DNA of 63,963 nucleotides, filler included, from Octopus bimaculoides (lineage: Eukaryota), in assembly GCF_001194135.2 (NCBI RefSeq). It is 10 parts of 8 records of this genome, joined end to end, with 100 filler letters (N's around TTAATTAATTAA, not from the genome) between each part and the next. Parts side by side here need not be neighbours in the genome. Positions count along the whole stretch, not along the records: positions 1 to 13,131 come from NC_068995.1; positions 13,232 to 23,700 come from NC_068984.1; positions 23,801 to 27,967 come from NC_068981.1; positions 28,068 to 34,830 come from NC_068988.1; positions 34,931 to 39,947 come from NC_068995.1; positions 40,048 to 45,098 come from NC_069008.1; positions 45,199 to 49,422 come from NC_068997.1; positions 49,523 to 54,397 come from NC_068982.1; 2 more parts are not named here. One strand, written 5' to 3'. A model generated the notes under the pieces. That model saw only the letters and a program-made list of their open reading frames with translations, did not search any database and was not told the DNA's origin. Shown piece by piece: positions 5,311 to 58,512 of this stretch (positions are counted from its first letter, which is position 1; each line of letters starts with the position of its first letter). The translations under genes were made by a program, and so were the position numbers.

Positions 5311-6460
5311 ATTTAGCCTCAGTTTTTTAATATTAAATGAGTTTGTTGCTCGTGTCATTTCCAGATGATTTTGTACATATTTTCAGTACCTAAGTGAACT
5401 TGAAGGAATGTAGAATAAATTTTTCTACTCAGAAATGCAAAATGTGGATTTGAATGTGCATTGCAGACCAATGTCTATTGCTCTTAACCAGTACATCTGA
5501 GTCTTCAGTTTTGTTTCTGATTGTTTCTCTCAATCATTTCATCCCTAAGAAAGATTAGTGAAGTACTGCATCATGAACCATTGTGACCTGTGGGGGTGAT
5601 TTTGTTTGACATTCCAATCAAGCTGAAAGGAGATAAACTCAGAAAGTCATGTTCATACATTTTCTTTTACTTCTATAGAACATTTTCTTGTCACTTAAGG
5701 TTGATTGGTTATTTTGTTGTGTTCTATAATGGAGACCACTAGCTGTGAAGTAACAATAAACTAGTGATTATATGGTCATGAATACGACCTTCTTTGTTGT
5801 ACCTCATGAGTAAGGCACCTTTGCTGACCCCCATTCTTCAAAAGCTCCTCTCCTATTTTATGGTTGAATAGTTAATAATAGGATGGGTAATCAACTGTAA
5901 AAACACCTGTTCCTACAAATAATGTTACTCCTACATAAATGACAAAGAACCCTTAAAAACAAGACTAAAATGCATTTTAGAAGGAGAATTTCTATTCTCT
6001 ATATTTCTATATAAATGATATTGTATGCTGTGACAAATCTAGATAATATTTGGTTCAGCAATCATTATTTTGTCCTCATGAAGGTAGAGACACTTACTCT
6101 TTGTCTGTAACTTGTTTTTACATCTGTTTTTCCATGCTAGTATGGGTTAGACGACTATATAAGTCATTGTTTTACAGCTGGATGCCCATCCAGTTTCTAA
6201 CCCTTATCTGCTTTATCAAGTGTGCTCGCTCTTATTCTACATGTCTTAAGAAGTGCAGAACCAGCAGATGGTTTCTTGACAGACAAATAACAGATGTTGC
6301 TGCTTGTAGCTCATTTGATTTTTCAGGAAAGGCTGCAGATGATAAGCATCTATAATATATATATATATATATATATATATATATATATATATATATATAT
6401 ATATATATATACCAGTGTAAGCACGTAAATGTGCAACAAGGTGGAAAAAAGAGTACTAAA

Positions 6461-6500
6461 ACTGTCCGATGAACGGGAACGTGAAACTCCGAGTAACAGT
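6461..6500 (+). ncRNA. Minimal type I hammerhead ribozyme-like motif (U4C variant core)
   Basis: Stem I ACTGT/ACAGT; core CCGATGA; stem II ACG-GGAA-CGT; GAAA; stem III (A)CTC-C-GAG(T); cleavage triplet GUA. Lies in a ~125-bp insert between two (TA)n tracts. Confidence 0.7.
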
Positions 6501-7965
6501 CTTTTGTTATATTTCTGGTGCTTTTAAATAAAGTATATATATATATACACACATACACACACACACATGTCATGAACTTTGTATAGTTTCTGTCTACCAA
6601 ATCCATTCAAAGCATTGGTTGGTCTGGGGCTATGGAAGAAGCCACTTGACCAAGCTACTGTGCAGTGGGATTGAACCCAAAACCACATGGTTTACAAGTG
6701 AACTTCCTAACCCAACAGCAACAAAGACCTGGCTGTGTTTATATTGGAAGCCTGAGGGTTTTTTATGAATTTTAGTGATTTGTATTAAAGTTATTGGATT
6801 AAATAAATCCATTGTAGTATTCTTTGTTGTTAGTGTTATAGAAAAGACAGCTATTTGTATGTTTTTACAACAGTCTGAAGCTAGTCCCTTTCCAGGTGTA
6901 TCAGTGGAGAACAATAAATAGTTTAAGCTGTGTAGCTTTGTTGTTTTACCTTGCTCTCTGTTGTGGCAGTTTTAGTCATTCATATTTTTAGCCTTTTGTC
7001 ATGTGTCATAATCAACTGCTTTGTTTTGGAGATTTCCTTGTCTTCAGACTTTGGTAGTGGTAAAAGTGAACAAATTAACAGTTAACCCTGACTGTCAGGT
7101 ACAAGTTCTGCACCTGAACTGAGGAGGCTCTGTGGTCATTCAACCTGCTAGAAATAGCAGCGAAATCTTTTTTAAACAACACTTTTTTTTGTAAGGGCAG
7201 ATTTAAAAAAAAAAAAAAACAGGGCGGTCATGGTTGGAATGTCATTGCTCATGGGTCTACTCAATCAGGACTGACCAGGGTTTAACAGCAACAACAACTA
7301 AGTGCTTTTGCTGGTAAAAGTAAGTGCTCAGTATTTTAGTATCAGACTAAAAAAAAAAACAGCTTCAATTTTCTATTCCTCTATAAGATGAATTAATCTG
7401 CTTTGTGAAAAGTATTTTCCTTGTATGTGTAATTTATTAAAAAATGTTTAATTTGTCATAAGATTTATTGATTATGTAATTATCACAAAAAATAATAATC
7501 TGCTTTTTCATCAAAGTTTTTCCTACTAGGATGTAATTTGGTGGAGACCTAGCTGCTATTTTTACCAGGTCGAAGCAATACATAAAGACTGCCTTGTTGA
7601 CTAGTAAATTTTAATGTTAGTGAATTGCTTTTTTTAATTTTTCTATTTACTAATCTTGTAACAATCTGTGTTGGTAGCCTGTAGAGACACCTATTAAATG
7701 GATCACTGGGGAAATGTGTACAGTTGGTTCATGTTTTCAAAGTAGTCGAGGACTGTAATAATAATACTTAGTCTGGTAGGGGGTTTTGAGATGACTATAA
7801 TACTTAGTCTGGTAGGGGGTTTTGAAATGACTATAGAATTTAGCGAGATTAAGGAAAATGATGATAGTAATTAAAAAAAAAAAGTTCCAGGTTTAGTCCC
7901 ACTTTGGGCAAGTGTCTTCTATGGAAACTGAAAGAAGCTCATTGTGTGTGTGTATTGCTTGATAG

Positions 7966-8215
7966 TAGAGACACATGGCTTAGTGGTTAAGGTACTTGGC
8001 TTATGATCGTAAGGTCAGGAGTTCAGTTCCCGGCTGTGCGTTGTGTCTTTGTGTAAGGCACTACATTTCACATTGCTTCAGCTCACTCATCTGGCAAAAA
8101 ACAAGTTGTACCTGTATTTCAAAGGGCCAGCCTTGTCACATTCTGTGTCATGCTGAACCCCATCCCCTGAGAACTACGTTAAGAGTATGCATGTCTGTGG
8201 AGATGTATTTATTTA
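7966..8215 (+). mobile_element. tRNA-derived SINE family D, diverged copy
   Basis: A-box-like tggcttagtgg, B-box-like ggagttcagttcc; body matches 22614-22923. Confidence 0.7.
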
Positions 8216-8454
8216 ATTGTTCCATCTAAGCAAAGGGAATTTGATAGATGGAAGCTGTGTGTGTGTGTGTGTGTGTGGATGTATGTCTTTGTGTTTGTTT
8301 CCACCCACCACTGTCTGACAACTGGTTTGGGGTTGGTTTATATCTCCATAACTTAGTGGTTCAGCAAAAAGAATCAATAGAATAAATTCGACTTCAATAA
8401 AAAAATTGTGGTTATTTTGTTTGACTAAACCCTTCAAGGTGGTACTCCAGAAAA

Positions 8455-57466: not shown

Positions 57467-57965
57467 TGTCTCCCTTGTTAGTCATTAGAAAAATGCTCTC
57501 ACATGGCTAAGAGGTGTTTGACTCTTATTTCTAACAATACCAGTGCTGACTAGCACCCTCCGCCACTTTAGTGACGGCTAAGCTTATTGCCTTTTGGTTG
57601 TAAATTGCAAATAGCCATCTTAATAATTTATAATTCTCACTTCACCATTTTCGGAACCAATTAATGTTTCCTATGGTGTTCTCTATAAGACTGACAAGGT
57701 GTGTTATTTAACCCTTGGCATCAGAGTAATGAGTCACTGATGAAGAGTAATCAACTCTGAAATCAGTGCTGATATGATTCCACCTAGCTTGCCATAGGGA
57801 GTGTGTGTCCCTTGTTAATCCTTAGGAAAGGCTCTCATGTGGCTAAGAGTTGTTTTGCCTCTTATTTCTAACAATGTTGGTACTGACTAGCACCTTCCAT
57901 CGCTTTAGTGACTTTACTTGTTGCCCTTCGGTTGTAAATTGCGAATAGTCACCTGAATAATTTAT
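57467..57965 (+). mobile_element. Partial tandem repeat A-B-A' (period ~335 bp) carrying a hammerhead; PLE pLTR / non-LTR retrozyme-like
   Basis: 57471-57632 aligns with 57808-57965 (clearly diverged); ends in (TA)n; inserted at the internal microsatellite position of a family A SINE. Confidence 0.72.
57731..57780 (+). ncRNA. Type I hammerhead ribozyme, complete canonical core
   Basis: Stem I GAGTCA/TGATTC (6 bp, one G-U); CTGATGA; stem II AGAGT-AATCA-ACTCT; GAAA; stem III (A)TCAG-TG-CTGA(T); triplet AUA; predicted cleavage after 57774. Confidence 0.85.
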
Positions 57966-58254
57966 ATATATATATATATATATATATATATATATATATC
58001 TTGGTAAAGTTCAGAGAGTAACTACCTTTGTTTGTTAGTAACAAAGCGCCTTACCCTCAGAATGAAAAGCAGATTGCATGATACCTGTGTATGAACAACT
58101 ATGCTACACACACACACACACACACATATATATNNNNNNNNNNNNNNNNNNNNNNNNNNNNNNNNNNNNNNNNNNNNNNNNNNNNNNNNNNNNNNNNNNA
58201 GGTGTATAAACAAGCAACATGTGTATTAGTTTGATACCCAGGAAGATGAGAAAG

Positions 58255-58292
58255 TCTTTTATGTTTCGAGCCTACGCTCTTCAACAGAAAGG
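58255..58292 (-). ncRNA. Hammerhead-like motif, CUGUUGA family, mutated stem III
   Basis: CCTTT-CTGTTGA-A-GAGC-GTAG-GCTC-GAAA-CAT-A-AAAGA. Confidence 0.5.
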
Positions 58293-58512
58293 AACACGAG
58301 GAAATAAACAGAGGGAGAATAAAAAAAAACTTGTGGATATATATATATGTATGCTTAACACATTTCAACACTGTAAAAAAAAAATTATATTTTTTTAAAA
58401 TACCATAATAACAAATGTGAAAACCAGACCATGTTTTAACTTTATTCAGCTGATATATTATTCTATACACATTCAAACAAATTCAGAAAAAAATATATAT
58501 GTATATATACAC

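What the first reader, a model, noticed from the sequence alone, without database searches (positions are those of the whole stretch)
6411..58335. Unusually dense population of hammerhead motifs from several unrelated short repeat families
Seen in sequence: about seven hammerhead-architecture motifs in under 64 kb, which includes many kb of N: 6461(+), 36352(+), 38039(-), 45862(+), 49169(-), 49563(-), 57731(+), plus the 58255(-) relative. Their stems differ in sequence but share short stem I pairing across the cleavage site and palindromic or near-palindromic stem III (ACGT, CAGCTG, CTC-N-GAG, ATCC-A-GGAT, TCAG-TG-CTGA). They occur in separate, unlinked contigs, so the density probably reflects the whole genome. 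Inference: the genome may carry very many PLE-derived hammerhead elements in multiple families.
Basis: partly seen in the sequence, partly recalled or inferred. Interest (0 to 1): 0.75.

Follow-up and report, generated by a model that had tools for sequence, protein, structure and literature searches.

The report
Penelope retroelement tails carrying hammerheads
The eight hammerhead-shaped motifs (RNA predicted to cut itself) are the short tail ends of common jumping repeats with an estimated tens of thousands of copies in this genome, some tied to Penelope-type retroelement genes and the rest likely copied by them; this is a known arrangement, although several large families carry altered catalytic cores that would likely cut poorly.

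Summary
Real, but a known kind of thing. All eight sites have type I hammerhead layout (descriptor 6 of 8; shuffles 0.065). Each belongs to a dispersed repeat family; most copies end in (TA)n and show 5' truncation, inversions or tails. An even 682-kb genome sample gives 18-26 motifs per Mb (about 35,000-50,000 genome-wide), so this window is 2-4 times richer than average. Site 49563 is the end of a Hydra-clade Penelope-like element (PLE). Site 58255, and by homology 45862, ends a Neptune/Nematis-type PLE. Sites 57731 and 38039 lie in ORF-less units of about 340 and 475 nt (retrozyme-like). Less ordinary: cores are changed family-wide (U4C in three window families; A6U in 3,655 exact-pattern copies), so Rfam and the published descriptor miss all eight. 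Deleted Hydra copies also form retrozyme-sized units of about 380-430 nt. RNA-seq shows family A in RNA without read ends piling at the cut site; cleavage is untested. This scan has already reported PLE and retrozyme hammerheads on other pieces of this genome and in other genomes. The paper most likely to cover the variants (Lunse 2017) was not available.

The parts
6410..6533 (+). Family B insertion between (TA)n runs: inverted copy of the 3' tail (6410-~6457), then hammerhead 6461-6500 (core CCGAUGA = U4C; predicted cut after 6495) and fixed 3' end
   Evidence: 1,325 first-look candidates; CCGAUGA in 18 of 20 fetched copies; no ORF link found
11811..11901 (-).
   Evidence: 94.5% identical to 45901-45990
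35836..36146 (.).
36155..36465 (+). Family D copy; hammerhead 36352-36399 (core CCGAUGA = U4C, palindrome ACAGCUGU, stem II damaged in this copy); possibly a ~527-nt ORF-less unit
   Evidence: 2,037 candidates; CCGAUGA in 12 of 15 copies; head-to-tail repeat in only 1 of 15
37809..38092 (-). Family E copy; hammerhead 38092-38039 with canonical core and GA-UC triplet; ~475-nt ORF-less unit
   Evidence: 724 candidates; CUGAUGA in 19 of 20; period 472-480 nt in 4 of 20
45714..45990 (+). Family A: 5'-truncated 3' end of a young Neptune/Nematis-type PLE subfamily (ORF link inferred through family A2); hammerhead 45862-45898, core CUGUUGA (A6U), ACGU palindrome, predicted cut after 45893
   Evidence: 40 of 40 scored hits 100% identical over 181 nt; 3,655 exact genome matches to the A/A2 pattern, control 0
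49100..49260 (-). Family F: old, decayed copy (ends approximate); hammerhead 49205-49169; family core mostly CCGACGA, this copy has A at C3
   Evidence: 73 candidates, 69-97% identity; C at position 4 in 11 of 20 (read from the alignment)
49529..49679 (-). Family G: 3' pseudo-LTR end of a Hydra-clade PLE; hammerhead 49623-49563 with canonical core; this copy has G at U16.1 (predicted dead)
   Evidence: 2,221 candidates; L262 is a near-complete element with hammerheads at both ends
57464..57964 (+). Family C: 1.5 copies of a 337-nt ORF-less unit ending in (TA)n; hammerhead 57731-57780 with canonical core, longest stem III and an extended stem I (retrozyme-like)
   Evidence: period 322-347 nt in 10 of 20 loci
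58200..58336 (-). Family A2: 3' end of a Neptune/Nematis-type PLE; hammerhead 58291-58256, core CUGUUGA (A6U), palindrome decayed to CA
   Evidence: same-strand A2 end within 1.5 kb after the GIY-YIG domain in 14 of 30 loci

Best explanation
The motifs are hammerhead-shaped tail ends of abundant dispersed repeats: the 3' ends of Hydra-clade and Neptune/Nematis-type Penelope-like retroelements, plus ORF-less retrozyme-like units that these elements' enzymes likely copy. Shown here: the families, copy numbers, fixed 3' ends in (TA)n, variable 5' ends, inversions, tails, and ORF links for families G and A2. Inferred from PLE literature: the GIY-YIG endonuclease nicks (TA)n, the reverse transcriptase primes there on the RNA's 3' end and usually stops early, so most insertions keep only the last 70-500 nt, which hold the pseudo-LTR hammerhead. 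The high density therefore reflects many abortive insertions from at least seven families, not many functional RNA genes. Predicted, untested: the RNAs cut slowly and mainly as dimers through the palindromic stem III, and the U4C and A6U families cut more weakly still; efficient cutting is probably not needed for amplification.
For: Window and genome sample far above shuffles. Each of the seven sites used as a query finds a dispersed family, with 73-2,221 first-look candidates; the eighth (58255, family A2) has relatives in 5 of 80 sample loci. Fixed 3' end into (TA)n or another simple repeat with ragged 5' ends. Inverted copies upstream in 6 of 15 D, 7 of 20 E and 3 of 15 G loci (a few such matches may be microsatellite noise). 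A2 follows RT (DKG motif), a CX4CX2C linker and GIY-YIG without a break in 2 of 80 sample loci, and follows the endonuclease in 14 of 30 loci (13 of 29 without the seed), always on the same strand. G follows an ORF with RWK, DKT, CxCX5C and CxH motifs, the Hydra diagnostics in PMC8557442. C and E repeat head-to-tail at 322-347 and 472-480 nt. All stem III strands tested form self-duplexes, while the monomer hammerhead is never the lowest-energy fold (9 of 9). The same insertion anatomy and (TA)n targeting are described for PLEs.
Against: No PLE ORF lies in the window. Families B, D and F were not tied to any ORF, and family A only through 74-77% similarity to A2. 16 of 30 endonuclease loci showed no A2 end (many have gaps or are cut short). 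A second PLE family (3,910 candidates) showed none of these hammerhead families as its 3' end in 30 short and 20 long loci. Covariation in family C is weak: score 0.113 against 0.086 (7 of 500 shuffles), but pairs with two-sided changes 4 against 4.3 (370 of 500). RNA reads run through the family A cut site at peak depth with no pile-up of ends. Clade names rest on motifs, not a tree.
Confidence: 0.88

Rival explanations
1. Same elements, but the hammerheads are mostly catalytically dead; the fold persists as a structural signal read by the PLE protein (template loading or priming), or as a passenger.
For: A6U is fixed in 3,655 exact-pattern copies of the youngest lineage and U4C in several families. 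Perreault 2011 reports low activity for changes at A6 and for U4C in vitro. No read ends pile at the cut site. PMC8557442 says hammerhead function in these PLEs is unclear and that Naiads spread without canonical ones.
Against: G5, G8, A9, GAAA and the UH triplet are kept across unrelated families. In the sample, single-position changes stayed at 0-2 hits except U4C (3 against 0.17) and A6U (5 against 0.33). The RNA-seq libraries are fragmented cDNA, a poor test for cut ends.
Confidence: 0.3
2. The motifs mark an active, highly expressed circular-RNA (retrozyme) system that amplifies on its own or serves the host.
For: C and E are ORF-less head-to-tail units of retrozyme size. Such units give abundant circles in mussel, coral and axolotl.
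Against: Most copies are single stubs. Family C copies are about 80% alike, hence old, and drew only 32, 19 and 12 reads from three runs (insensitive at this divergence). Family A reads lie about equally in both orientations, as for passive read-through or unstranded libraries. G and A2 are plain PLE ends.
Confidence: 0.07
3. Chance matches in AT-rich, microsatellite-rich DNA, or an effect of how the window was packed.
For: The relaxed core was fitted after seeing the sites. Rfam finds no hammerhead. The window is enriched over the genome. The loose U4C pattern total did not exceed its reversed control (27,089 against 28,440).
Against: The strict descriptor gave 2 against 0 in 200 shuffles and 12 against 0.05 in an independent sample. 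Every site belongs to a multi-copy family.
Confidence: 0.01

Closest known systems
Minimal type I hammerheads in pseudo-LTRs of metazoan PLEs (Cervera and de la Pena 2014, PMC4209133; parts 1-2 of 4 and the whole supplementary PDF text read)
   Same: Short stem I, extra nucleotide after A9, palindromic 15.2-16.2 or loop 3, many families per genome, mostly solo truncated copies, close pairs on opposite strands; thousands per genome (Xenopus ~9,000, coelacanth ~4,000).
   Different: The Fig. S3 representatives have CUGANGA or UUGANAA cores, as their descriptor required. Here U4C and A6U are family-wide and stems II and III are often longer; my re-implementation of their descriptor finds 0 sites in the window and 5 in the 682-kb sample.
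Hydra-clade and Neptune/Nematis PLEs (Craig et al. 2021, PMC8557442; section 11, passages and one supplement search seen)
   Same: RWK, DKT, CxCX5C and CxH motifs, ~2.7-kb body and (TA)n target for family G; DKG, Zn-finger linker and CCHH-type endonuclease for A2; inverted upstream copy and optional tail.
   Different: The two Octopus rows I saw in the supplement are Naiads (2 of 4 occurrences shown). Frequent short internal deletions that join the ORF start to the hammerhead end were not in the passages read.
Metazoan non-LTR retrozymes (Cervera and de la Pena 2020, PMC7229834, passages; Li et al. bioRxiv 10.64898/2026.07.22.740005, part 1 of 5 and passages)
   Same: ORF-less units of a few hundred nt with one type I hammerhead, arranged head to tail (families C, E, perhaps D); proposed PLE origin; coral has more than 6,000 motifs in 16 families.
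   Different: Here mostly 1-1.5 units rather than arrays; E and D units (475-527 nt) are longer than the 220-390 nt reported; circles and cleavage not shown.
Natural hammerhead core variants (Perreault et al. 2011, PMC3088659, passages; Naghdi et al. 2020, PMC7151607, abstract)
   Same: U4C is known from a viroid (lower activity in vitro, still infectious); A6C from a phage (slow; Mn2+ preference).
   Different: Those are single cases. Here U4C recurs in about seven families and A6U is fixed in thousands of copies. A6U in a hammerhead did not turn up in my searches, but Lunse et al. 2017, whose title announces PLE-associated variants, could not be read.

Membership tests
Type I hammerhead ribozyme | Three stems around CUGANGA / GAAA / UH, with ends in stem I | tested here: met
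   Layout at 8 of 8 sites; intact canonical core and triplet at 2 of 8 (38039, 57731)
Type I hammerhead ribozyme | Invariant U4 and A6 | tested here: not met
   U4C in B (18 of 20), D (12 of 15), F (11 of 20); A6U in A (30 of 30) and A2
Type I hammerhead ribozyme | Match to an Rfam hammerhead model | tested here: not met
   0 matches at gathering score in the window; none at E up to 10 for 57700-57810 or 45830-45930
Type I hammerhead ribozyme | Compensatory changes in stems | tested here: inconclusive
   Family C only: 85.7% of cells paired, covariation 7 of 500 shuffles, pair-level 370 of 500; signal sits at the centre of the stem III palindrome
Type I hammerhead ribozyme | Self-cleavage after H17 | not testable with these tools
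   RNA-seq showed no pile-up of ends for A or C; such libraries are a weak test
Endonuclease-bearing PLE | RT plus C-terminal GIY-YIG ORF upstream of a hammerhead-bearing 3' pseudo-LTR | tested here: met
   A2: L119, L142 and 14 of 30 loci. G: L262, and a same-strand hammerhead 1-3 kb after the ORF start in 7 of 20 loci
Endonuclease-bearing PLE | Same ORF link for families A, B, D, F | tested here: inconclusive
   No linked ORF in the fetched flanks; A shares its 3' region with A2
Endonuclease-bearing PLE | 5' truncation, inverted upstream copy, optional tail, (TA)n target | tested here: met
Hydra clade (family G) | RWK, DKT, CxCX5C linker, CxH, body under 3 kb | tested here: met
   Read in L262 and related loci against PMC8557442 section 11
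Neptune versus Nematis clade (family A2) | Phylogenetic placement of the RT | not tested
   Both clades have the Zn-finger linker; no tree was built
Non-LTR retrozyme | ORF-less head-to-tail unit of a few hundred nt with one hammerhead | tested here: met
   C 10 of 20 loci, E 4 of 20; D only 1 of 15; A, B and G none among copies fetched by the window query
Non-LTR retrozyme | Abundant unit-length linear and circular RNA | tested here: inconclusive

The most novel reading that the evidence does not exclude
In this lineage PLE hammerheads have repeatedly been detuned at the catalytic core (U4C in about seven families, A6U in a very young 3,600-copy lineage) while keeping the dimer palindrome, so they work as slow, dimer-gated or non-cutting switches that standard searches miss. 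The same genome shows retrozymes being born: separate deletions in a Hydra PLE join the ORF start to the hammerhead end and give 380-430-nt two-hammerhead units. Together these offer a natural allelic series for testing what PLE hammerheads are for.
Probability: 0.2. Interest if true: 0.55.

Novelty: new member of a known kind. Interest (0 to 1): 0.3.

Why it matters
The arrangement is known, so the main value is quantitative and practical. An estimated 35,000-50,000 hammerhead-shaped motifs are largely invisible to Rfam and to the published descriptor. The role of hammerheads in PLEs is stated to be unclear (PMC8557442). Sister families here differ at U4 and A6, and their recent copy numbers can be measured, so cleavage rate could be set directly against amplification success. 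The deleted Hydra copies give a sequence-level route for the proposed PLE origin of animal retrozymes.

Tried and rejected
1. Spliced copies of family G: some copies join other sequence near a 3'-splice-like site. Rejected, because junctions differ from copy to copy and the unjoined copies have no GT donor there. They are internal deletions. 2. A PLE RT fragment beside L015 as source of the window families: not linked. 3. A6U locking the core in an inactive rod: probability 0.97 for the bare motif but 0.12 with 30-nt flanks; not robust. 4. Loose genome-wide U4C pattern: total not above its reversed control; only the listed examples were used. 5. Automatic core tallies for C, E and F mis-hit and were dropped; those counts were read from the alignments. 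6. Rfam: only microsatellite-driven miRNA matches among the 150 of 209 rows shown. 7. Sequencing-run search: no RNA holder listed for family C. 8. Lunse et al. 2017 was not held under DOI, PMC id or PubMed id; only its title and a review's summary were seen. 9. Literature searches for octopus hammerheads and for PLE internal deletions found no paper on this; supplements of the bioRxiv preprint are closed and may bear on it. 10. An extra candidate at 7115-7174 has weak stems and was not pursued.
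Full report
Observation. The window is a pack of ten stretches of a 2.34-Gb animal genome rich in (TA)n and similar microsatellites. Earlier notes of this scan call it an octopus; I did not test that. All eight sites exist with type I hammerhead layout. A descriptor found 2 with a strict core, 4 with U4C allowed and 6 with a relaxed core, against 0, 0 and 0.065 in 200 shuffles; the relaxed core was set after seeing the sites. 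The two misses are decayed copies. Rfam finds none.

Density. I took 80 evenly spaced 10-kb stretches from chromosome-scale contigs, chosen before looking (682,394 non-N bases). They hold 12 strict, 15 with U4C and 18 relaxed motifs, against 0.05, 0.1 and 1.1 in 20 shuffles. That is 18-26 per Mb (95% range about 9-40), or about 35,000-50,000 if the genome has 2.0 Gb of non-N sequence. The window is 2-4 times richer than this; P = 0.005 for the relaxed set but 0.27 for the strict set. My re-implementation of the published minimal descriptor gives 5 in the sample and 0 in the window. The genome is rich but not off the scale.

Families. Seven sites were used as queries and each found a dispersed family: A 45862 (723 first-look candidates; 40 of 40 scored hits 100% identical over 181 nt), B 6461 (1,325), C 57731 (103), D 36352 (2,037), E 38039 (724), F 49169 (73), G 49563 (2,221). 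These counts are lower bounds. An exact pattern for A and A2 matches 3,655 places, with 0 for the control. In A, B, D and G, copies end at a fixed point in (TA)n or another simple repeat, start at varied points, and often carry an inverted copy or an optional 65-130-nt tail. This is the insertion anatomy described for endonuclease-bearing PLEs.

Links to PLE genes. In 2 of the 80 sample loci the A2 end follows an RT with a DKG motif, a CX4CX2C linker and a GIY-YIG domain without a break. Of 30 loci fetched with that endonuclease, 14 have the A2 end within 1.5 kb on the same strand; many of the other 16 run into gaps or end early. Family A is 74-77% like A2 and shares its upstream 3' region, so its link is inferred. 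Family G follows an ORF with RWK, DKT, CxCX5C and CxH motifs. L262 is nearly complete, with an inverted and a direct hammerhead before the ORF and one 2.7 kb after its start; 7 of 20 loci have the downstream hammerhead 1-3 kb away. These are the Hydra-clade marks. No PLE ORF lies in the window, and B, D and F were not linked. A further PLE family with 3,910 candidates was not linked to these hammerheads.

ORF-less units. Sequence downstream of the hammerhead recurs directly upstream at a period of 322-347 nt in 10 of 20 C loci (337 nt in the window; two further matches at odd periods were dropped as noise), 472-480 nt in 4 of 20 E loci and 527 nt in 1 of 15 D loci. C and E thus have the layout of non-LTR retrozymes; D is uncertain. 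In family G, 15 of 30 loci fetched with an ORF-start query join the first 60-210 nt of the ORF to the hammerhead end, mostly at different junctions (two loci are the two arms of one insertion). Six were favoured by the query, leaving 9 of 24. L239 has two direct hammerheads 382 nt apart. This is a retrozyme-sized unit cut from a PLE, in line with the origin proposed in the 2026 preprint. Whether such units amplify further was not shown.

Core variants. U4C is in 18 of 20 B, 12 of 15 D and 11 of 20 F copies; A6U is in 30 of 30 A copies. These copies were ranked by likeness to the window copy, so the shares may be inflated. Independent support: in the sample U4C gave 3 hits against 0.17 and A6U 5 against 0.33, and other single changes gave 0-2. 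Of the first 100 listed matches of a loose U4C pattern (7.8 Mb of C1), I count by eye 37 in seven recurring families, although the pattern's total was not above its control. The exceptions in D and B are mostly CTGA or CCAA, as expected from CpG decay of CCGA (inference). U4C is known from a viroid and lowers activity in vitro; A6C is slow. I found no hammerhead A6U in two searches, but Lunse et al. 2017 was not available and may describe both.

Structure and expression. In 9 of 9 motifs folded, the monomer hammerhead is less stable than the lowest-energy fold, and stem III strands form self-duplexes of -1.7 to -15 kcal/mol, which fits the published dimer model. Covariation in C is weak and sits at the centre of the palindrome. 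Family A drew 2,713, 3,241 and 2,183 reads in three RNA runs, in both orientations about equally, with peak depth across the hammerhead and no pile-up of ends. Family C drew 32, 19 and 12. Neither result shows cleavage or circles, and neither is a sensitive test.

Mechanism. Shown: families, ends, inversions and two ORF links. Inferred from PLE biology: endonuclease nicking of (TA)n, priming at the RNA's 3' end and early stops, which leave hammerhead-bearing stubs; ORF-less units likely borrow the same enzymes. Predicted: slow, dimer-dependent cutting, weaker in the variant families, and probably not limiting for spread.

Verdict. This is a new instance of PLE hammerheads and retrozymes, already noted by this scan on other pieces of this genome and in other genomes. 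The family-wide core changes and the deletion-born units are the parts worth a bench test. Interest 0.3.

Noticed in passing
window 26605-27967: Fragment of a LINE-type ORF2 end (Pfam zf-RVT, E 2.4e-8); the peptide stretch repeats on both sides of an N gap, probably an assembly duplication.
   Followed up: partly
window ~45240-45560: Tc1/mariner-like DDE_3 transposase fragment (E 3e-7).
   Followed up: partly
L071-L080 (family B): 8 of 10 copies ranked only on the hammerhead and 3' end are cut off within about 15 nt upstream of stem I (read), suggesting a truncation hot spot or an RNA 5' end there.
   Followed up: no
L234 / L239 (G000:C3:73.73 Mb): Both arms of one inverted insertion carry the same ORF-to-hammerhead deletion junction, so the deletion was likely present in the template.
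   Followed up: partly
L032-L060, L181-L200: An abundant PLE family with DKG, CxxxxCxxC linker and GIY-YIG (3,910 candidates) for which my descriptor found no linked 3' hammerhead; it may carry a more divergent motif.
   Followed up: partly
L102, L106/L129, L107, L124, L133, L134/L189, L150, L160, L171, L180: About ten further hammerhead types outside the window's families appear in the 682-kb sample; one occurs with both CCGA and CTGA cores.
   Followed up: no
window 35836-36465; L079; L205: Hammerhead elements nest: D sits right after an E tail, B after a D tail, D after D, each at the (TA)n left by the earlier insertion. This may explain local clustering.
   Followed up: partly
window 4090-4235, 8455-8630, 10628-10790, 12980-13131, 16035-16210, 46258-46380, 57300-57460 and others: Many copies of one or more abundant SINE-like repeats, 70-93% alike.
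   Followed up: no
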